Positions 20,863 to 47,634 of a stretch of 54,616 nucleotides of DNA are shown one piece after another. Source of the DNA: Candidatus Micrarchaeota archaeon. GTDB taxonomy: Archaea > Micrarchaeota > Micrarchaeia > Anstonellales > Bilamarchaeaceae. Every line of letters starts with the position of its first letter. Positions within the stretch are counted from its first letter, which is position 1. The notes under the pieces are model-generated. The model was not told the DNA's origin. It saw nothing but the letters and a program-made list of their open reading frames with translations, and did no database searches. The position numbers and the translations under genes were made by a program. The DNA is taken from assembly GCA_040754495.1 (NCBI GenBank), contig JBFMCO010000041.1, positions 1 through 54,616 of the forward strand. Reading direction: 5' to 3'.

Positions 20863-21573
20863 ATGCGAGCATTCGTTCTTGCCGGAGGAGAAGGGACCAG
20901 GCTGCGGCCATACACCTATTCCGTGCCCAAGCCCATGCTCATGCTCGGGGGCAAGCCTATACTCCAGTACGTGATAGAGAACCTCAAGCGCTGCGGCATC
21001 AAGGACATAATACTCACGGTCGGCTACAAGCACGAGCAGATAACCGGATACTTCGGGGACGGGCGGAAATTCGGCGTGGACATCGAATACTCCATCGAGA
21101 AGGAGCGGATGAATACGGCCGGCTCCATAACCCCGTTCAAAGGAAAGGTGAATGAGACGTTCGCGGTCGTGATGGGCGACCATCTCACCAACATCGACCT
21201 CTCGGACATGCTCAGGCACCACAAGAAGAGCGGCGCCCTCGCAACTATCGCGCTCTATCCCGACAGGGTCACGCTCGAATACGGCGTCGCTGACATAGGG
21301 AAGGACGGCAAGGTGAGCGGCTTCCGCGAGAAGCCCCTCGTCCAGCACCTCTACAACACCGCAATCTACATGCTCGAGCCCGAGATATTCGGCTACATAA
21401 AAGGGAAGGAGGACTTCGCCAAGGACGTCTTCCCGCGCCTCCTCTCGTCCGGGAAGAAAATCGAGGGCTACGTGTTCGAAGGCGTGTGGTTCGACATAGG
21501 CCGCGTGAGCGACTACGAGCGCTTCGTGGAGCAATTCAGCCTGCTGCGCCTCCTGAAAGACCTCGGCGACTAG
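20863..21573 (+). CDS. NDP-sugar pyrophosphorylase family nucleotidyltransferase
   Basis: LAGGEGTRLRPYT..PKPM, FREKP and WFDIG motifs. Confidence 0.95.
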   Translation: MRAFVLAGGEGTRLRPYTYSVPKPMLMLGGKPILQYVIENLKRCGIKDIILTVGYKHEQITGYFGDGRKFGVDIEYSIEKERMNTAGSITPFKGKVNETFAVVMGDHLTNIDLSDMLRHHKKSGALATIALYPDRVTLEYGVADIGKDGKVSGFREKPLVQHLYNTAIYMLEPEIFGYIKGKEDFAKDVFPRLLSSGKKIEGYVFEGVWFDIGRVSDYERFVEQFSLLRLLKDLGD

Positions 21574-24727: not shown

Positions 24728-25384
24728 ATGAAAAGGATAAAGGATTTCTTCCTGCTGAAAGACGACGCTTTTTTCGACATGCTCGTGAACCTGGCCGAAG
24801 TAACCCAGAAGTGCTCGGTCGAGTTCGAGCGCTTCGTGTCCGATTACGAGAGGCTGGACGCCGGTCAGAGGGGGGTGCGCCTCAAGGCGCTCAACGGCTA
24901 CGAGAAGGACGGCGACGTTCTTGTGCGCACTATATCCGAGGAGCTCTACAGGAACTTCATAACGCCGATAGACCGGGAAGACATTCACGCGCTCGCATCG
25001 GACCTGGACACAGCCATAGACATGATGGAGGACATCGGCAAGAAATTCGTCTACTACCGCATCGACACGACGACGCCGACAATGAGGGAGCTGGCCCACA
25101 TAATCGCAGAGCAGGTTCTGGAGATAAAGGCGGCTGTGGGGAGCCTGAACCGCGGCAAGAGCATGAAAACCCAGTACCAGCGGGTGTTCGAGCTTGAGGA
25201 CCACGCCGACGTGATTTACGAGAAGGCCATGACCGAGCTTTTCGACCCGGCTAACGAACGCCTCGCCGCAAGCCCCCTCCACGTCATCAAGCTAAAGGAC
25301 CTCTATGACGAGATGGAGGAGCTGGCCGACCTGAACCAGCGCCTTGCAGCCATCGTGGAAGGCATTCTGATAAAGCACGTGTGA
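24728..25384 (+). CDS. DUF47 family phosphate transport regulator (PhoU-like)
   Basis: YEKDGD, FITPIDREDI..L...LD and LEDHAD. Immediately upstream of PiT. Confidence 0.93.
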   Translation: MKRIKDFFLLKDDAFFDMLVNLAEVTQKCSVEFERFVSDYERLDAGQRGVRLKALNGYEKDGDVLVRTISEELYRNFITPIDREDIHALASDLDTAIDMMEDIGKKFVYYRIDTTTPTMRELAHIIAEQVLEIKAAVGSLNRGKSMKTQYQRVFELEDHADVIYEKAMTELFDPANERLAASPLHVIKLKDLYDEMEELADLNQRLAAIVEGILIKHV

Positions 25385-25395
25385 GGCAGGGCCTG

Positions 25396-26397
25396 ATGAT
25401 AGAAACCCCCATCCTGGTGGCATTCGGCATCTTCCTTGCGCTGGCCTTCGATTTCGGCAACGGCCTCAACGACGCCGCGAACGCCATCTCGACCATCGTC
25501 GCCACGCGGGTGCTTTCCCTGCGGGCCGCCGTGGTCCTTTCCGCGTTCTTCAATTTCGTGGCCGCTTTCACATTCTCCACGGCTGTCGCCGAGACCATGG
25601 GCAGGGGCGTGGTTGACCCGGCTGCCATAAACGCCTACGTTGTCATCGCCGGCCTCGTGTCCGCGGTCATATGGGTCTATGGCCTGAGCTGGCTTGGGAT
25701 GCCCATATCCGCGAGCCATGCGCTCATCGGGGGGCTGGTAGGGGCCGCAGTTGCCGCAGCAGGCTGGGACGTCGTAAAGCTGGAAGGCCTCGTGAAGATA
25801 GTCGTATTCATCTTCCTCGCCCCTATTCTCGGCATGGTTTTCGGCTACCTGTTCTCGCTGCTCGTGCTCATCGCAGTCAAGCGCATGCCGCCCGAGAAGG
25901 TGCAGAAGCATTTCAAGAAACTGCAGCTCCTCTCGGTCTCGGTCTACAGCCTTGGCCATGGCGCGAACGACGCCCAGAAGACGATGGGAATAATCACCCT
26001 CCTGCTCTTCATCGGCGGCTTCATCACCGACTTCCACGTTCCCGCGTGGGTCGTGCTCGCATCCCACAGCACGATAGCCATAGGCACCCTGGCCGGCGGC
26101 TGGGCCGTCGTGAAGACGATGGGCACGCAGATAACGAAGCTGCGGCCGATAGACGGCTTCTGCGCAGAGACCGCCGGGGCAGGCGTGATAATCGGCAGCA
26201 GCGCCTTCGGCATACCGGTAAGCACCACCCACGTCATAACCGGCTCCATAAGCGGCGTCGGGGTGATGAACCGCACCACTGCCGTGAACTGGAGCATCGC
26301 GAAAAGAATCGTCTACGCGTGGTTCCTGACCATCCCGCTTACGGCGCTCGTGGCCGCTGTCGTATATCTTGTGCTGGGTGCGGTCCTCGGTTTCTGA
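25396..26397 (+). CDS. pitA: Inorganic phosphate transporter, PiT family
   Basis: Signature motifs GLNDAANAI, HGANDAQK and GIPVSTTH. Confidence 0.96.
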   Translation: MIETPILVAFGIFLALAFDFGNGLNDAANAISTIVATRVLSLRAAVVLSAFFNFVAAFTFSTAVAETMGRGVVDPAAINAYVVIAGLVSAVIWVYGLSWLGMPISASHALIGGLVGAAVAAAGWDVVKLEGLVKIVVFIFLAPILGMVFGYLFSLLVLIAVKRMPPEKVQKHFKKLQLLSVSVYSLGHGANDAQKTMGIITLLLFIGGFITDFHVPAWVVLASHSTIAIGTLAGGWAVVKTMGTQITKLRPIDGFCAETAGAGVIIGSSAFGIPVSTTHVITGSISGVGVMNRTTAVNWSIAKRIVYAWFLTIPLTALVAAVVYLVLGAVLGF

Positions 26398-26449
26398 GCG
26401 GAGAGGCCTCTTTGGTTCGCATGTCCGGCTGGAGGTGCTTCCGTCACTC

Positions 26450-42974: not shown

Positions 42975-43286
42975 CTAACCCCTCTTGAAGAACGTGAAAA
43001 TCTTCGCCCCGGAAAGAATCTTCTTCAGCTCCCCCTCGAGCGCGCCCTCGCCGGTCTCCTTTCCCTTGCGCCTGAGGAGGGCCTCGAGGTTCCTCTTCTG
43101 TATGCGGAGAATCCTCTCGTTCTTGCCGATTTCGACGAAGTCCGGCACCTTCCCGCCCTTGAGGCCGCCGAGCGCGCGGTTGATTATCGCGAGTTCCAGC
43201 TGGTTGATGTCGAAAAACGATACTGCCTCGCCGGCCGTTTCGCGGACCTCGCCGCCTTCCTCGCGCCGCCTTGCCGTTGCCCTCAC
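42975..43286 (-). CDS. Hypothetical protein (103 aa)
   Basis: GTG start after a GGAG SD. Co-oriented with neighbours. No family recognised. Confidence 0.55.
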   Translation of the reverse strand: MRATARRREEGGEVRETAGEAVSFFDINQLELAIINRALGGLKGGKVPDFVEIGKNERILRIQKRNLEALLRRKGKETGEGALEGELKKILSGAKIFTFFKRG

Positions 43287-43321
43287 GTTATTTCCTCTCC
43301 TTCGCGCCTTTTTAACCTTTC

Positions 43322-43578
43322 ATGATGCTCTCAGGCTCGTTCCTGTCTGCGAAATGGTTGTCCCGGACCGCCCTCACGATGCGGTTGTCGCCCGAGAGGC
43401 CGCTTTTCACGACGGCGCTTATGACGGTAAGCCTCTCCTGCCTGCTGAGCGAGCCGTATGCCAGCGCGAGGCTGTCCGCGAATGCAGCATCCGTCCTAAT
43501 CGTCTGGGCGAGCCTATCCGTCCCCTCCCTTATCCTTGCCGATATATCGGCGTTCCTGGCCAATTCCCTCATGGTCAT
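43322..43578 (-). CDS. Hypothetical helical protein (~85 aa)
   Basis: Frame MTMRELARNADISARIREG...; the start has been trimmed from the track ORF. Confidence 0.5.
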
Positions 43579-43652: not shown

Positions 43653-44594
43653 CTAAATCTCCTGCCCTCCCATCCTGGCGAACACCATATCCCCGCTGTT
43701 CTCCAGTATGTCCTCGGCATAGCGGACGATTTTGTTGCATTTCTCCATCAGCGAGCGCAGGCCGAGCATCCTCGCCGCCGTCTTTTCCTTCCTGAGGCCT
43801 GCCTCAAGGCGAGAGAACTCCTCCTGGAAGTCCTTTCTCGCTTCCCCGAACTCCCCGCGGTCGAGTTCGCAGCCCGCGAACGCCTTGTACGCAGACGAAT
43901 ACGCCTTTTGCGCCTTCTCCAGAAGGACGGCGATGCGGGCATCCGGCCCCTCCCTCGCCAGCACGCTCAGCTCCACCAGGTGGTCGCTCACCTTCTCCAT
44001 GCTCTTTGCCGTTATCGCCTTGAAGACCGATTCGCTGCTCTTGTAGCTCCCGATGCAGAGGTTACGGAGGACGAGCAGGTACAGCCGGTCCACCTCGCTC
44101 TCCTTCCTGGATATCTCGGTATGGGTGTCTGCCCCGTCCCTCAGCGCGCCCATTACAAGGGCGAACATGGATTGGGTGACGTTGAACTCCCTCTTTATTA
44201 TGTTGTCCGTCTGGACGTCCTCGAAGGCGAGTATCCTCAGCGTTACCTTCTCCCCCTCTTCGTCCGTGATTTCGACGCCCGAGAGCACCCTCCTCGCCTC
44301 CTCCGCGATTGTGTGAGTCCCCTTGCCGCTCAGGACAATCCTGCCGGCGCCCCCGACATAGGCAGAGACGATATTCCTCATCCCGGTCGCGGGCGATTCG
44401 GCCGACACCTCCAGGGCGACGGTCTTGAGCTCGCGCTCAGCCTTCTTGAGAGACAGCGTCAGCGTGCCGTCCTCGTTCTGGTTCAGGAACACCCCGTCCC
44501 CCTTCGACACCCCGCTTTTCTGCACCCATTCGTGGGGCAGGGATACGATGTACGTGTTCCTACCCGTGAGCTGAATCCTTCTTGGAATTTCCAT
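43653..44594 (-). CDS. AbrB/SpoVT-PhoU phosphate uptake regulator
   Basis: RRIQLTGRNTYIVSLP..W N-terminal AbrB domain, SAYVGG, and PhoU-like EVDRLY and MEKVSDH. Start ATG 44594. Confidence 0.92.
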   Translation of the reverse strand: MEIPRRIQLTGRNTYIVSLPHEWVQKSGVSKGDGVFLNQNEDGTLTLSLKKAERELKTVALEVSAESPATGMRNIVSAYVGGAGRIVLSGKGTHTIAEEARRVLSGVEITDEEGEKVTLRILAFEDVQTDNIIKREFNVTQSMFALVMGALRDGADTHTEISRKESEVDRLYLLVLRNLCIGSYKSSESVFKAITAKSMEKVSDHLVELSVLAREGPDARIAVLLEKAQKAYSSAYKAFAGCELDRGEFGEARKDFQEEFSRLEAGLRKEKTAARMLGLRSLMEKCNKIVRYAEDILENSGDMVFARMGGQEI

Positions 44595-44605
44595 AGAACC
44601 AACTT

Positions 44606-44657
44606 TGGTATATACCATTTTGTGTTGTATATATACATTTTGCGCAAGATATATAAA
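44606..44657 (+). promoter_or_regulatory. Promoter/operator module copy A
   Basis: TGGTATATACCA-N12-TATATACA-TTTTGCGCAA-GA-TATATAAA, located between the divergent regulator and micro-ORF A. Confidence 0.8.
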
Positions 44658-44695
44658 CGGTCCTGATTCTTCCATGTGCAACAGGAGGTGTGAAT

Positions 44696-44830
44696 ATGTC
44701 GAAAGTGAGCTATCCGAGGGAAAAGAGGCTGAAGGAAGAGGGCATGGACAGCTACTCGTCTGTCAGCTACGCGAGGAACCAGAGGACGAGGCAGTTCGGC
44801 AAATCTTTGCTTGAGGGCTCGAAATCCTGA
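44696..44830 (+). CDS. 44-aa micro-protein A (MSKVSYPREKRLKEEGMDSYSSVSYARNQRTRQFGKSLLEGSKS)
   Basis: Manual translation, with a strong SD AGGAGGTG. Paralog of 44917..45060. Confidence 0.85.
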   Translation: MSKVSYPREKRLKEEGMDSYSSVSYARNQRTRQFGKSLLEGSKS

Positions 44831-44831
44831 A

Positions 44832-44883
44832 TGGTATATACCAAATATACCACCATATATACAATTTGCGCAATGTATATAAA
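44832..44883 (+). promoter_or_regulatory. Promoter/operator module copy B
   Basis: TGGTATATACCA-N12-TATATACA-ATTTGCGCAA-TG-TATATAAA, gap-free and colinear with copy A. Confidence 0.8.
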
Positions 44884-44916
44884 TAAAGAAAAAGGGAAGA
44901 AAACAGAGTGAGTCGA

Positions 44917-45060
44917 ATGCACTTGAATTTCAAAACTCATAACCCGAGAGACAAATACCACAAGGAAGTTGGTAATGACTCTTTCTCGTCTGTGAACTAT
45001 GCGAGGGCTTACAAGAACAGGAAGTTCAGCCTCCCGAACTCAGAGTGCATCATGAAGTAA
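44917..45060 (+). CDS. 47-aa micro-protein B (MHLNFKTHNPRDKYHKEVGNDSFSSVNYARAYKNRKFSLPNSECIMK)
   Basis: Manual translation. Shares PR.K..KE.G.DS.SSV.YAR....R.F with micro-protein A. Confidence 0.85.
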   Translation: MHLNFKTHNPRDKYHKEVGNDSFSSVNYARAYKNRKFSLPNSECIMK

Positions 45061-45077
45061 CGCTCATCCCCAAATTC

Positions 45078-45108
45078 GAGGAGTGGCCCCCGCCCTCCTC
45101 TATTTTTT
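45078..45108 (+). terminator. Hairpin plus T-run after micro-protein B
   Basis: GAGGAG...CTCCTC stem followed by TATTTTTT. Confidence 0.55.
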
Positions 45109-45139
45109 GTAAACTCCAGTCGTAACTGTTTTCTACGGT

Positions 45140-45168
45140 GGTTTCCGGTTTCCAGTTTACGGTTTTGG
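45140..45168 (-). repeat. Intergenic heptamer array, copy 6
   Basis: The minus strand reads CCAAAA CCGTAAA CTGGAAA CCGGAAA CC. Confidence 0.8.
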
Positions 45169-45222
45169 GGAGGATTGATAACGGCTGGAAAAATGGAAAA
45201 GGGAAAATAGAAAGAGCCGCGG

Positions 45223-47634
45223 TCAATCATCGCCGAAAGAGCCTGCGTCCTCGTCCTTGTCGGCTTTCTGCAGGCTGGAGAGGCGGTGCAGTATTATCTT
45301 CTGCTCCGCGCTCGCAACTATCTTCCTTGTCCGCTCCACAGCGTCGGGATTGACCGACATGCTCGTTATGCCGAACTCGACGAGCTTCTCGGCGAACTCC
45401 GGATAGACCGAAGGGGCCTGGCCGCACAGCGAGCTCGTCACGCCATATTTGTTGCACGTCGTGACGACGCGCTTGAGGGCCCGGAGCACCGCCTCGTTCC
45501 TCTCGTCGAATCCCTTGGCCATCGTCGCGTTGTCCCTGTCGATGCCCAGAATCAGCTGGGTGAGGTCGTTCGTGCCTATGGAGACGCCGTCGATGCCCTC
45601 CTTGCAGAACTGGTCTATGAGCATCACGGTGCTCGGCACCTCCACCATTATCCAGAGCTTGAAGTCCCTCGTGCGGTAGAGCTCGACCTCCTCCATGGTG
45701 TCCTTGATGGCGCGCAGCTCCCCTATCCTCCGGATGAACGGTATCATCAGCCAGAGGTTCTTCAGGTGGTACTCCTCGCGCACCTTCTTTATGGCCTCGA
45801 GCTCCATCTTGAAGAGCTCCGGCTCGCGGATGTACCTGGAGGCGCCCCGGTAGCCCATCATGGGGTTCTCCTCGTGCGGCTCGTACTTGTCCCCGCCCTC
45901 GAGGTTCCGGTATTCGTTCGTCTTGAAATCCGTGGCGCGGTACACCACTGGCCTCGGATAAAATGCCGCCGCGAACTTGCGCAAGTCGTCCGCAAGCATG
46001 TCTATGAACTCCTGCTGCTTCCCTTCCTCGAGCATCTTCCTCGGGTGCTTGCCGATCTCGGCTATCATGAACTCGGCGCGAAGCAGGCCAACGCCGTCGC
46101 AGGGGAGCCTGGACACCTTCTCGGCCTGGTCCACGTCGGCCAGGTTCACGTAAATCTTCGTCCCGGTTATGGGCGCCGCGGCGGCGGCGACCGCCTGGAC
46201 TGCCGCCCCGGCCGCGCCCGGCTTCGCCGCAGCCTCCGGCGCGGAGACTAAGCCCTCGTAGATTATGCCGTGGCTCCCGTCCACGCTGATGTCCATCCCG
46301 TCCTTGAGGGTGGCGGTCGCGTTTCCTGTGCCGACGACGCATGGTACGCCCAGCTCGCGGCTGACTATGGCCGCGTGGCTGGTCATGCCGCCGGTGTCTG
46401 TTACGATGGCGGAAGCCTTCTTCATGCCCGGCACGAAGTCCGGCGTTGTCATCTCGGTGACAAGCACGTCCCCGCGCTCCATGTTCTTGATTTCCTTCGC
46501 GCTCCGCACTATCTTGACCTTGCCCATGCCCATGCCTGGCGAGGCGCCGAGCCCGCGCACGATTATCTTAGCCCCGCTCACGCCTCCGGACGCGCCGGGC
46601 GCGGCTGGCCTCGCCTGCGCTGATGCGCCTCCCTTCACAAGCTCGCCTCCGGTGCCTTTCTCAAGCCCCTTCTTGTCGGCCAGCGTGGTTATCGGCCTGG
46701 CCTGGACTATGTAGAGGTTGTCCTTCTCGAATGCGTATTCTATGTCCTGAGGGTATTCGTAGTGCTCCTCGATTTTCTTGCATATCTTCGCGAGGTCGCG
46801 TATCTCGGTGTCCGACAGCTTCTGCCTTCCCTGCGCCTCGTCCTTGATGTCGACCCTCTTGTTCTTCCCTTCCATCTTTATGAGCATCCAGGGCTGCTTC
46901 ACGACGCTCTTGTCGATAATGCGGAAATCCCTCTTGTCCACCCTGTAGGTGTCGGGCGTCACCTGGCCGCTCACCACGACCTCTCCGAGCCCGTATGCGG
47001 TCTCGACGGACATGATTTCCGGGTCCTGGTACAGGGGGTCCACCGTGAATACGACGCCGGCCTTCTCGCTCTGGACCATCATCTGCACGACGGCGGCGAG
47101 GCCGACCTTCATGTGCTCGAACTTGTTCTCCACCCTGTAGAATATGGCCCTTGGCTCGAAGAGCGACGCCCAGCACTCCTTGACCGCCTTGACGACGTCC
47201 TCGGGCCCGATGATATTGAGGTACGTCGATTGCTGTCCCGCGAAGCTCGCGGTGGGAAGGTCCTCTGCGGTGGCGCTGCTCCGGACGGCCACGTATACCT
47301 GCCGGCCCGCCATCTCGCACAGCTGCTTGTATGAGGAGAGCACGTCGTTCTGCACGTCCACCGGCATGCTGCCCTTTATTATCATCTCCTTTATCTGCTC
47401 GGATGCCTTCATGAGCGCGTCGTTGTCGCTGACATCCAGGGCATCGAGGATGCGCTTTACCGGCTCGCGGAGGTTGTTCGCATCAAGATGCTTGTAGTAC
47501 GAGCCTGCGGTAACCACGAAACCGTTCGGTATGGGGAACCCGTTCCCGAGCATCTCGCCAAGATTTGCCCCCTTCCCGCCAGCCTCTGCCAGGCTCTTCC
47601 TGCTGAGCTCCTTGAACCACATGACGTTTTTCAT
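45223..47634 (-). CDS. ppsA: Phosphoenolpyruvate synthase (pyruvate,water dikinase)
   Basis: GGKGANLGE, AVRSSATAEDL..ASFAGQ, the phospho-His motif GGMTSHAAIVSRE, EENPMMGYRG and SIGTNDLTQ. Confidence 0.98.
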   Translation of the reverse strand: MKNVMWFKELSRKSLAEAGGKGANLGEMLGNGFPIPNGFVVTAGSYYKHLDANNLREPVKRILDALDVSDNDALMKASEQIKEMIIKGSMPVDVQNDVLSSYKQLCEMAGRQVYVAVRSSATAEDLPTASFAGQQSTYLNIIGPEDVVKAVKECWASLFEPRAIFYRVENKFEHMKVGLAAVVQMMVQSEKAGVVFTVDPLYQDPEIMSVETAYGLGEVVVSGQVTPDTYRVDKRDFRIIDKSVVKQPWMLIKMEGKNKRVDIKDEAQGRQKLSDTEIRDLAKICKKIEEHYEYPQDIEYAFEKDNLYIVQARPITTLADKKGLEKGTGGELVKGGASAQARPAAPGASGGVSGAKIIVRGLGASPGMGMGKVKIVRSAKEIKNMERGDVLVTEMTTPDFVPGMKKASAIVTDTGGMTSHAAIVSRELGVPCVVGTGNATATLKDGMDISVDGSHGIIYEGLVSAPEAAAKPGAAGAAVQAVAAAAAPITGTKIYVNLADVDQAEKVSRLPCDGVGLLRAEFMIAEIGKHPRKMLEEGKQQEFIDMLADDLRKFAAAFYPRPVVYRATDFKTNEYRNLEGGDKYEPHEENPMMGYRGASRYIREPELFKMELEAIKKVREEYHLKNLWLMIPFIRRIGELRAIKDTMEEVELYRTRDFKLWIMVEVPSTVMLIDQFCKEGIDGVSIGTNDLTQLILGIDRDNATMAKGFDERNEAVLRALKRVVTTCNKYGVTSSLCGQAPSVYPEFAEKLVEFGITSMSVNPDAVERTRKIVASAEQKIILHRLSSLQKADKDEDAGSFGDD

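What the first reader, a model, noticed from the sequence alone, without database searches (positions are those of the whole stretch)
44594..45108. Tandem duplicated 'operator + micro-protein' units divergent from an AbrB-PhoU regulator
Seen: two ORFs below the track cutoff (44 aa at 44696-44830 and 47 aa at 44917-45060) align over 28 residues with 17 identities (PREKRLKEEGMDSYSSVSYARNQRTRQF vs PRDKYHKEVGNDSFSSVNYARAYKNRKF). Each follows a gap-free 52-bp module, with a 226-bp period. The boxes TGGTATATACCA, TATATACA, TTTGCGCAA and TATATAAA are kept while the 12-bp spacer has diverged. A terminator-like hairpin closes the pair. Knowledge: AbrB-PhoU fusions are archaeal phosphate-responsive regulators, and AbrB domains bind AT-rich repeats. 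Inference: this is an undescribed regulated micro-protein family, possibly phosphate-starvation effectors, enzyme or ribosome modulators, or Ser/Tyr-rich modification substrates or peptide precursors. I recognise no family for it.
Basis: partly seen in the sequence, partly recalled or inferred. Interest (0 to 1): 0.85.

Follow-up and report, generated by a model that had tools for sequence, protein, structure and literature searches.

The report
Regulator-linked orphan micro-protein gene pair
Two real genes for tiny (44 and 47 aa) basic proteins of an undescribed family, each behind its own copy of a strictly conserved three-box promoter, sit next to an AbrB-PhoU transcription regulator in one group of Micrarchaeota (DPANN archaea); they very likely form that regulator's private regulon, but what the proteins do is still unknown.

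Summary
Two 52-bp modules (44606-44657, 44832-44883; 39/52 identical, no gaps, 226 bp apart) each precede a small ORF (44696-44830, 44917-45060). The ORFs are real genes. Relatives of 41-51 aa occur in 21 of 40 genomes of the same Micrarchaeota genus. They always lie beside the ortholog of the divergent AbrB-PhoU regulator and were not found in the 19 genomes that lack it. Ortholog dN/dS is 0.03-0.19. Most have a conserved Shine-Dalgarno-like leader. A profile search of 1.84 billion proteins found only 14 proteins, all 43-51 aa, and no Pfam, NCBIfam or PDB family matches. The promoter module is gap-free in 37 copies from 21 genomes: GGTATATACC, 12 nt, ATATATAC, BRE-like TTTGCGAAAG, TATATAAA. 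The composite occurs only at this locus in the genome. In metagenomes it occurs only next to this regulator. TATATAC-type boxes are also enriched upstream of distant AbrB-PhoU paralogs that lack these micro-proteins, so the boxes go with the regulator. Best reading: a dedicated AbrB-PhoU-controlled cassette encoding fast-evolving, basic, helix-loop-helix micro-proteins. Copy number changes by duplication, conversion and loss. Phosphate responsiveness, modification-substrate and peptide-precursor ideas are untested or unsupported. Interest is moderate.

The parts
43653..44594 (-). AbrB-PhoU transcription regulator (313 aa): N-terminal AbrB-type beta domain, a middle alpha/beta domain (about residues 57-121), and a C-terminal six-helix PhoU bundle
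   Evidence: Pfam PF04014 and PF01895 both pass their gathering scores. AF2 model has pLDDT 83. The C-terminal part matches PhoU crystal structures, TM 0.74-0.75 to 1t72/1t8b. Orthologs were found in 21/40 genus genomes.
44606..44617 (.). Palindrome TGGTATATACCA of module a. Candidate operator. It lies 11 nt upstream of the regulator's start codon and about 65 nt upstream of the inferred start of the ORF1 transcript.
   Evidence: 92% mean column conservation across 37 modules, and it was not part of the regex used to collect them. Its distance to the regulator ATG is 9-16 nt in nearly all of the 21 genomes (G004 and G034 farther), with a GGTGA-type SD in between in most.
44629..44636 (.). Box 2, ATATATAC, of module a. 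Its TATATA core starts 21 bp after that of the palindrome and 20 bp before that of the TATA box. It is also correctly placed to serve as the TATA box of the divergent regulator gene.
   Evidence: The spacing is invariant in all 37 modules.
44638..44657 (+). Core promoter of ORF1: BRE-like TTTTGCGCAAG followed by TATA box TATATAAA (44650-44657)
   Evidence: The transcription start near 44680 is inferred from the usual archaeal TATA-to-start distance (my knowledge, not measured).
44683..44690 (+). Shine-Dalgarno sequence AGGAGGTG, 5 nt before the ORF1 ATG
   Evidence: An equivalent CAGAG-N-GTGA motif is conserved 5-8 nt before the ATG in most orthologs.
44696..44830 (+). Micro-protein gene a (44 aa, pI 10.0, net charge +5)
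   Evidence: (dN/dS 0.19 against the 89%-identical ortholog in L021).
44832..44883 (+). Module b: palindrome 44832-44843, ATATACC half-site, ATATATAC 44855-44862, BRE-like ATTTGCGCAAT, TATA box 44876-44883
   Evidence: It is conserved although no divergent gene uses it.
44917..45060 (+). Micro-protein gene b (47 aa, pI 9.7, net charge +5). AF2 predicts helices at 11-17 and 24-37.
   Evidence: (dN/dS 0.04 against L021).
45078..45108 (+). Hairpin (45078-45100) plus T run (45103-45108) closing the pair. The oligo-T is the likely archaeal terminator.
   Evidence: z = -3.5. The same GAGGAG...CTCCTC hairpin plus T run is present in G022 and G062.

Best explanation
This is a self-contained regulatory cassette of one Micrarchaeota lineage. 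It comprises an AbrB-PhoU transcription factor gene and, divergent from it, one or two genes for 41-51-aa basic proteins of an orphan family.

Shown:
- The micro-ORFs are genuine protein-coding genes under purifying selection.
- Each has its own near-consensus BRE/TATA promoter and, in most genomes, an SD-bearing short leader. In four AT-rich genomes the mRNA appears leaderless.
- Every promoter copy is preceded, at an invariant distance, by GGTATATACC and ATATATAC. Together with the TATA box this gives three TATATA cores 21 and 20 bp apart, i.e. on one face of the helix.
- Regulator, boxes and micro-protein genes are present or missing together.

Inferred mechanism:
- The AbrB domain dimer of the regulator binds the palindrome and the phased TATATAC boxes cooperatively.
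- At module a this overlaps the regulator's own promoter and transcript start, giving autoregulation.
- At both modules it sits just upstream of BRE/TATA and so tunes TBP/TFB recruitment to the micro-protein promoters.
- The PhoU six-helix bundle (and the middle alpha/beta domain) is the signal-sensing part. The signal could be phosphate or a metal, by analogy only.
- The products are small, cationic helix-loop-helix peptides with little hydrophobic core. They probably act by binding a macromolecular partner (nucleic acid, ribosome or an enzyme) when the regulator switches.
- Copy number evolves by tandem duplication, gene conversion and loss, and one copy suffices.

My odds: real translated genes 0.95; boxes are functional cis-regulatory sites 0.85; the adjacent AbrB-PhoU protein is what binds them 0.65; the signal is phosphate 0.25; any specific molecular function of the peptides below 0.2 each.
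For: Coding:
- Relatives were found by six-frame search in same-genus genomes, often as tandem pairs. The profile search hits 17/40 genomes.
- The 4 further genomes that have the regulator carry the module plus a diverged 42-45-aa ORF.
- dN/dS is 0.03-0.19 for ortholog pairs. Amino-acid identity is retained where dS is saturated.
- Third codon positions are the least conserved between the two window copies: 23, 18 and 14 of 28 at positions 1, 2 and 3.
- An SD-like motif is conserved before the ATG.
- Gene callers already list these ORFs, one named 'hypothetical protein' by its source.

Orphan status:
- 14 hits among 1.84e9 representatives, all 43-51 aa.
- No hit in Pfam, NCBIfam, PDB or the Atlas.

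Linkage to the regulator:
- Every micro-protein hit is adjacent to the regulator ortholog.
- 21/21 genomes with the regulator have the cassette. 0/19 without it gave a micro-protein hit.
- Six regulator-less genomes keep the flanking genes (dph2 in five, up2 in five), but other ORFs lie between them and pps and there are no boxes.

Cis-module:
- 37 gap-free copies in 21 genomes. The palindrome scores 1.62 bits per column against 0.23 in the flank.
- The composite is unique to this locus in the genome.
- The usual TATA box of this genome is TTTATAAA, not TATATAC.
- A metagenome scan found 6 hits carrying the full module in its normal context, all 6 next to the regulator; two further regex matches lie in repetitive DNA.

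Boxes go with the regulator family:
- 24 TATATAC/GTATATA boxes lie in 2.47 kb upstream of 19 distant AbrB-PhoU homologues in other Micrarchaeota families. The other 67 kb of those loci hold 6.

Regulator architecture.

Birth and death: promoter-only remnants occur in G022, G062, G036, G010, G018 and G028. Paralogs cluster by lineage in the tree.
Against: - No binding, transcription or translation data exist.
- The boxes are TATA-like. Some could be alternative or divergent TBP sites rather than operator sites. Box 2 is well placed to be the regulator gene's own TATA box.
- The enrichment background mixes coding and intergenic DNA.
- ATATATAC and the TATA box were part of the regex used to collect modules, so only the palindrome, the BRE-like stretch and the spacing are independent observations.
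- All genomes are MAGs of 53-94% completeness and are phylogenetically related. The 21/21 vs 0/19 co-occurrence reflects few independent events.
- The AF2 model of the micro-protein is only moderately confident (pLDDT 67).
- Nothing ties the cassette to phosphate. The two PiT transporter genes of the genome are elsewhere and show no box.
Confidence: 0.62

Rival explanations
1. The conserved TATATA-type boxes are not operator sites. They are stacked or back-to-back core promoters bound by TBP/TFB. Box 2 would drive the regulator gene (and, in module b, an antisense RNA across gene a), and the palindrome would be a further TBP site. The regulator's link to the micro-proteins would then be mere neighbourhood.
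For: All three boxes contain TATATA. In the window the stretch between box 2 and the TATA box is a palindrome (TTGCGCAA) that could act as BRE in both directions (pair I5). Box 2 lies about 40 nt upstream of the regulator ATG, with an SD in between in most genomes. That fits a TATA box for a short-leader regulator mRNA.
Against: The palindrome and box 2 are equally conserved in b modules, which have no divergent gene. The flanking G/C (GGTATATACC) is conserved and differs from the genome's usual TATA box, TTTATAAA. The palindromic BRE is not conserved in other species, where it reads TTTGCGAAAG. Regulator, boxes and micro-protein genes are gained and lost together. Similar boxes sit upstream of distant AbrB-PhoU paralogs.
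Confidence: 0.15
2. The micro-proteins are themselves small dimeric DNA-binding proteins (ribbon-helix-helix-like). They recognise the repeated TATATAC boxes and act as auto- or co-regulators with the AbrB-PhoU protein.
For: They are about 45 aa with net charge +4 to +6. Two predicted helices are joined by a conserved G-x-D-S turn with a Ser at the N-cap of helix 2. This resembles the G-x-S/T turn of CopG/Arc-type proteins (from my memory, a lead only). Two paralogs could form heterodimers.
Against: No RHH Pfam family is hit by any of 29 members, even at E <= 1. No N-terminal strand is predicted and the first helix is only 7 residues. Hydrophobic core positions are few. TATATAC boxes also occur upstream of distant AbrB-PhoU paralogs that lack these micro-proteins, so the boxes track the regulator.
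Confidence: 0.1
3. A toxin-antitoxin-like pair: the MazE/AbrB-fold protein is an antitoxin-regulator and the small basic peptides are toxins.
For: The N-terminal domain hits PF04014 (named MazE_antitoxin) and, weakly and below cut-off, TIGR02609 'doc_partner'. The partner genes are small and evolve fast.
Against: The genes are divergent with separate promoters, not co-transcribed. The 313-aa protein carries a full PhoU bundle. The cassette has a fixed chromosomal position between dph2 and pps with no mobile-element context. The peptides are hydrophilic and under purifying selection, and they persist as one or two copies.
Confidence: 0.04
4. The small ORFs are not translated. The units produce regulatory RNAs, or are promoter duplicates with chance ORFs.
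For: The ORFs are short, and no expression data are available.
Against: dN/dS is 0.03-0.19 and the frame is preserved at 41-51 codons. This holds across genomes of very different GC content whose synonymous sites are saturated. The SD is conserved. There is no Rfam match.
Confidence: 0.04

Closest known systems
Archaeal 'SpoVT/AbrB family regulator containing a PhoU domain' (e.g. TK2245 of Thermococcus kodakarensis, listed among chromatin-associated proteins in PMC7325993; PhoU-family TFs counted in Pyrococcus furiosus in PMC6316755)
   Same: Same two Pfam domains in the same order. The PhoU six-helix bundle is confirmed by fold comparison.
   Different: I found no operator, regulon or signal described for any member. 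Here a candidate operator and a two-gene private regulon can be read from comparative sequence. The protein also has a middle alpha/beta domain (about residues 57-121) that I did not identify.
Bacillus subtilis AbrB and its small anti-repressor AbbA (from my knowledge, not tested here)
   Same: An AbrB-fold DNA-binding domain that recognises AT-rich, phased sites with TGGNA-like half-sites; the palindrome here is TGGTA-TA-TACCA. A small protein is functionally coupled to it.
   Different: AbbA is acidic and mimics DNA, whereas these micro-proteins are strongly basic. There is no sequence relation. A direct regulator-micro-protein contact is not shown.
Small stress-induced basic proteins such as E. 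coli Sra/RpsV (45 aa, stationary-phase ribosome-associated; from my knowledge)
   Same: Similar size and charge, and the gene has its own promoter. They offer a plausible mode of action: binding a large nucleic-acid-containing machine.
   Different: No detectable homology. No evidence of ribosome association here.
Ribbon-helix-helix (CopG/Arc/MetJ) proteins
   Same: About 45 aa, two helices, and a conserved Gly-x-(Asp)-Ser turn before helix 2.
   Different: No Pfam match. No predicted N-terminal strand, a short first helix and a weak hydrophobic core.

Membership tests
AbrB-PhoU (SpoVT/AbrB + PhoU) archaeal regulators - for gene 43653-44594(-) | N-terminal SpoVT/AbrB (swapped-hairpin) domain | tested here: met
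   PF04014: 33.0 bits against cut-off 24.7, residues 8-52. AF2 shows four short strands plus a helix at residues 6-48, but with low pLDDT of 55-70, as expected for an obligate dimer fold modelled as a monomer.
AbrB-PhoU (SpoVT/AbrB + PhoU) archaeal regulators - for gene 43653-44594(-) | PhoU six-helix bundle with conserved acidic motifs | tested here: met
   PF01895: 24.6 bits against cut-off 23.5. Six helices span residues 129-309. TM 0.74-0.75 and rmsd 2.6-2.8 A to Aquifex PhoU 1t72/1t8b. Invariant E160, K164, E165, D169, R170 and Y292, D295, E298, D302 in 18 orthologs.
AbrB-PhoU (SpoVT/AbrB + PhoU) archaeal regulators - for gene 43653-44594(-) | Sequence-specific DNA binding and response to phosphate | not testable with these tools
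   Only comparative inference is available. I found no experimental paper on the fusion family.
Any described protein family - for the micro-proteins | Significant match to a Pfam, NCBIfam or PDB sequence, or to a longer protein | tested here: not met
   Pfam: 0 families for both ORFs, and 0 credible families for 29 members. NCBIfam: 0. PDB best E = 1.2. In the 1.84e9-protein library only 14 hits, all 43-51 aa. Atlas: no usable hit.
Ribbon-helix-helix DNA-binding proteins | N-terminal beta strand followed by two helices forming an intertwined dimer, with RHH profile match | tested here: inconclusive
   No RHH profile hit. The monomer AF2 model has two helices and no strand, pLDDT 67. Dimer modelling could not be run.
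Type II toxin-antitoxin module | Co-transcribed adjacent antitoxin and toxin genes under one autoregulated promoter | tested here: not met
   The genes are divergent, and each micro-protein gene has its own BRE/TATA.
RiPP or modified-peptide precursor locus | Adjacent modifying, processing or export genes | tested here: not met
   The conserved neighbours are Dph2, two small unknown ORFs and PEP synthase.
Archaeal BRE/TATA core promoter | 8-bp TATA box preceded by a purine-rich BRE, about 24 nt upstream of the transcript start | tested here: inconclusive
   The sequence fits (gcGaAAgg + TaTATAAA, 37 copies) and the distance to the SD/ATG is consistent. The transcription start was not measured.

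The most novel reading that the evidence does not exclude
The GGTATATACC / ATATATAC array is the first readable operator of the uncharacterised archaeal AbrB-PhoU regulator class. TATATAC-type boxes recur upstream of paralogs across Micrarchaeota. The micro-proteins are the sole effectors of this switch in a reduced DPANN genome. They would be a new class of small cationic starvation or stress factors that dock onto a core machine (ribosome, chromatin or a central enzyme) when the PhoU domain senses phosphate or metal status.
Probability: 0.25. Interest if true: 0.7.

Novelty: new variant of a known kind. Interest (0 to 1): 0.5.

Why it matters
AbrB-PhoU fusions are annotated in many archaea, but I found no operator, regulon or signal described for them. 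This locus offers a minimal, comparatively defined system: one regulator, one conserved 52-bp module present in two copies, and two tiny target genes. That makes the regulator's DNA recognition directly testable by EMSA, footprinting or in-vitro transcription. It also adds a well-supported orphan micro-protein family. These genes are shorter than the cut-offs many analyses apply (here they fell below the first-stage ORF track's cut-off). The family lies in DPANN archaea, whose reduced genomes make a dedicated regulator-effector cassette unlikely to be dispensable. The scope is narrow, about half of one Micrarchaeota genus, and the biochemical function is unknown. That limits the immediate impact.

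Tried and rejected
- Complex prediction of regulator plus micro-protein b, both as alignments: no verdict (score 0.00, controls not run). This is not evidence either way.
- The search for related loci with the micro-protein alignment failed in viral and metagenome collections, because no stretch is conserved enough.
- Foldseek of the micro-protein model against the PDB: nothing (best E = 8.8). Protein Atlas: no usable hit.
- Rfam on 44300-45400: only a sub-threshold snoRNA match inside the regulator gene.
- The bacterial-type promoter/terminator scan is not informative for an archaeon.
- PEP synthase as functional partner: rejected as a specific link. pps is present in 38/40 genus genomes, including those without the cassette.
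- The C-terminal 'ESIMKG' of the upstream 88-aa ORF resembles the micro-protein C-terminal E-S-I-x-K motif. Orthologs of that ORF extend past it, so I treat the resemblance as chance.
- Other GTATATAC sites in the genome: 7 further sites, 6 of them inside long open frames and one AT-rich site, probably intergenic, on contig C5. None has the composite module.
- Metagenome scan with GGTATATACC-N12-ATATATAC: 69 hits. About 61 are unrelated low-complexity or other sequences. Six carry the full module in its normal context, all beside the regulator; two more regex matches are in repetitive DNA.
- A first regex for the module returned nothing because the spacer limit was too tight. This was corrected.
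It was redone from references.
- The search of earlier findings gave nothing bearing on this locus.
Full report
**1. Observation**

The region was read.
- TGGTATATACCA occurs at 44606-44617 and 44832-44843. That is 2 matches in the window against 0.02 expected by chance. They are the only two sites in the 1.63-Mb, 80%-complete assembly.
- The two 52-bp modules (44606-44657 and 44832-44883) align without gaps at a 226-bp period, with 39/52 identities. The differences cluster in the stretch between the palindrome and ATATATAC.
- ORF1 (44696-44830, 44 aa) has AGGAGGTG 5 nt before its ATG. ORF2 (44917-45060, 47 aa) has AGAGTGA.
- The quoted 28-residue cores share 16 identities; tblastn gives 17/32. 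In a six-frame search of the whole genome ORF2 is the only other hit to ORF1, at E = 6.6e-5.
- A hairpin (45078-45100, -15.4 kcal/mol, z = -3.5) followed by TTTTTT closes the pair.
- The divergent gene 43653-44594(-) passes the Pfam gathering scores for an AbrB-type domain (PF04014, MazE_antitoxin) and for PhoU.

**2. Organism**

Record titles of the regulator's relatives name Candidatus Micrarchaeota, and one names Ca. Bilamarchaeum sp.. The DPANN guess was right. The genome is 59.5% G+C.

**3. The ORFs are real genes of an orphan family**

- A six-frame search of relatives found matches in 9 of 36 same-genus genomes, six of them as tandem pairs.
- A profile of 19 sequences (A1) raised this to 17 of 40 genus genomes.
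- Every hit lies next to the ortholog of the regulator.
- The regulator ortholog (E < 1e-90) is present in 21 of 40 genomes. The four that have the regulator but no profile hit (G010, G030, G061, G009) carry the same promoter module followed by diverged 42-45-aa ORFs.
- None of the 19 genomes without the regulator gave a micro-protein hit.
- Six regulator-less genomes examined at the locus keep the flanking genes (dph2 in five, up2 in five). Between these and pps they carry other ORFs and no TATATAC boxes. Regulator, boxes and micro-protein genes therefore behave as one unit.
- dN/dS between orthologs is 0.19 and 0.04 (window vs the 89-98%-identical L021), 0.03 and 0.19 (G017 vs G029), and about 0.15 (vs G034). 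In more distant pairs dS is saturated while 50-60% amino-acid identity persists.
- Between the two window copies, codon positions 1, 2 and 3 keep 23, 18 and 14 of 28 identities.
- The frame length stays at 41-51 codons in genomes ranging from AT-rich to 60% G+C.
- A profile search of 1.84 billion representative proteins, with no length filter, found only 14 proteins, all 43-51 aa.
- Pfam (29 members scanned), NCBIfam, PDB sequences and the Atlas gave nothing.
- Gene callers already list these ORFs; one carries the name 'hypothetical protein'.

**4. The proteins**

- Consensus: x5-P-R-D/E-K-x3-E-x-G-x-D-S-F-S-S/A-V-x-Y/F-A-R-x-Y-x2-R-x-F-x4-E-x-I-x-K/R.
- One Lys and one Glu are invariant, and one Ser is more than 90% conserved.
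- Median pI is 10.0 and net charge about +5, with almost no Cys.
- AF2 with a 29-row alignment gives pLDDT 67 and two helices, 11-17 and 24-37. The conserved Ser sits at the N-cap of helix 2.
- The low hydrophobicity and the conserved charged residues suggest folding on a partner.

**5. The cis-module**

- Anchoring on the TATA box, 37 modules from 21 genomes align without a single gap. The consensus is tTGGTATATACC-aaatATacc-..-aATATATAC-..-TTTgcGaAAgg-TaTATAAA.
- The palindrome was not used to collect the modules. It has 0.92 majority frequency and 1.62 bits per column, against 0.23 bits in the 5' flank and 0.40 downstream.
- The three TATATA cores start 21 and 20 bp apart, that is two helical turns. 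A weaker ATATACC half-site sits between the first two.
- gcGaAAgg + TaTATAAA reads as a strong archaeal BRE/TATA (my knowledge). The genome's commonest TATA-like octamer is TTTATAAA, not TATATAC.
- The composite (TATATAC ... TTGCG, or TTGCGMA ... TATAWAA) occurs only at these two places in the genome. Of 7 other GTATATAC sites, 6 are inside long open frames.
- In metagenomes, an 18-base pattern gave 69 hits. Six have the full module in its normal context and all six are next to the regulator; four of them are followed by a recognisable family member.

**6. Link between boxes and regulator**

- The regulator's ATG lies 9-16 nt from the palindrome in nearly all of the 21 genomes (G004 and G034 are farther). 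Most have a GGTGA-type SD in between.
- Box 2 is thus about 40 nt upstream of the ATG, the right place for the regulator's own TATA box. The palindrome then falls at the inferred transcript start. This is the classic geometry for autoregulation.
- The same palindrome and box 2 are equally conserved in b modules, which have no divergent gene. They must therefore matter for the micro-protein promoters too.
- 19 distant AbrB-PhoU homologues from other Micrarchaeota families lack these micro-proteins. They carry 24 TATATAC/GTATATA boxes in the 2.47 kb upstream of their starts, against 6 in the remaining 67 kb of those loci. The background there is mixed DNA, so the ratio is generous, but the association is clear.
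- This is the best available argument that the boxes belong to the regulator family and not to the micro-proteins.
- The regulator model (pLDDT 83) shows an N-terminal beta domain, an unidentified alpha/beta domain (57-121) and a six-helix bundle. The bundle superposes on PhoU structures at TM 0.74-0.75.

**7. Evolution of copy number**

- Two intact genes occur in G000, L021, G017, G029, G034, G021, G033, G006 and G030. Elsewhere there is one.
- In G022 and G062 the second module, the SD and the terminator hairpin remain but the ORF is gone.
- In G036, G010, G018, G028 and G006 the regulator-proximal module is followed by a short remnant.
- In a tree with few columns and weak resolution, paralogs group by lineage: G033 a+b at 89/90, G006 a+b at 93/90, and the G017/G029/G034 set at 90/98. 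This points to repeated duplication or gene conversion.

**8. What it most likely is**

- It is a dedicated AbrB-PhoU-controlled cassette.
- Shown: real genes, an orphan family, a conserved promoter with fixed-phase boxes, and strict co-occurrence.
- Inferred: the regulator binds the boxes cooperatively, autoregulates, and tunes both micro-protein promoters in response to whatever the PhoU and middle domains sense.
- Phosphate is only an analogy. I found no experimental work on the fusion family. The genome's two PiT genes, one of them at about 25400-26400 in this window, carry no box.
- The peptides probably act by binding a macromolecule. Nothing tested here tells which one.

**9. Rivals**

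- Stacked or bidirectional core promoters without a specific factor (0.15).
- Micro-proteins as RHH-like DNA binders (0.10).
- A toxin-antitoxin-like pair (0.04).
- Untranslated RNAs (0.04).

The reasons are given in the rival entries.

**10. Novelty and score**

The regulatory logic, a transcription factor with divergent small targets, is a known kind. The micro-protein family, the module and the readable candidate operator for an uncharacterised archaeal regulator class are new. The family is confined to about half of one genus and has no assigned function. Interest is 0.5.

Noticed in passing
L076, L078, L082, L083, L084 (other Micrarchaeota families; regulator homologues): Distant AbrB-PhoU paralogs are divergently paired with two families of two-TM small ORFs (59-65 aa; a longer TM ORF in L082). 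TATATAC-type boxes lie in the shared intergenic region. 'AbrB-PhoU + divergent small protein' may be a wider architecture.
   Followed up: partly
L088 (G187:C5): An AbrB-domain homologue lies directly next to what looks like the C-terminus of a PiT-type phosphate transporter read on the opposite strand. This would give a phosphate link for that paralog only. It is my reading of the translation, not verified.
   Followed up: no
window 42975-43286 (-) and 43312-43578 (-): Two small ORFs (103 and 88 aa) lie between dph2 and the regulator and have no Pfam family. The 103-aa one is conserved (44-76% identity) across the genus, including in genomes without the cassette. The 88-aa one is conserved in some genomes.
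   Followed up: partly
window 43653-44594 (-), residues about 57-121 of the regulator: An alpha/beta domain (beta-alpha-beta-alpha-beta-beta, pLDDT about 87-89) sits between the AbrB and PhoU domains. It has no Pfam match. It may be a ligand-binding module.
   Followed up: no
G027:C48:669-4304 (same genus): PEP synthase matches residues 1-420 and 417-802 inside one 1268-aa open frame. This implies an in-frame insertion of about 400 aa, possibly an intein.
   Followed up: no
own genome, contig C42 around 45492: A stop-free frame of 6659 codons covers this site, so a giant protein gene lies there.
   Followed up: no
own genome, contig C5 around 20940-20990: This is the only other AT-rich, probably intergenic GTATATAC site. 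It sits in an AT-rich palindromic stretch (GTGTATAC ... TATACGTATATAC) and lacks the composite module.
   Followed up: no
window 24728-26397 (+): A 218-aa ORF is immediately followed by a PiT (PHO4, PF01384) phosphate transporter. A second PiT lies on contig C51, and a 667-aa open frame with a PhoU domain on C50.
   Followed up: no
L046-L048 (G030, G061, G009): In these AT-rich genomes the micro-protein ATG lies only 22 nt after the TATA box, with no SD. The mRNAs are probably leaderless, unlike the SD-bearing leaders in the GC-rich genomes.
   Followed up: partly
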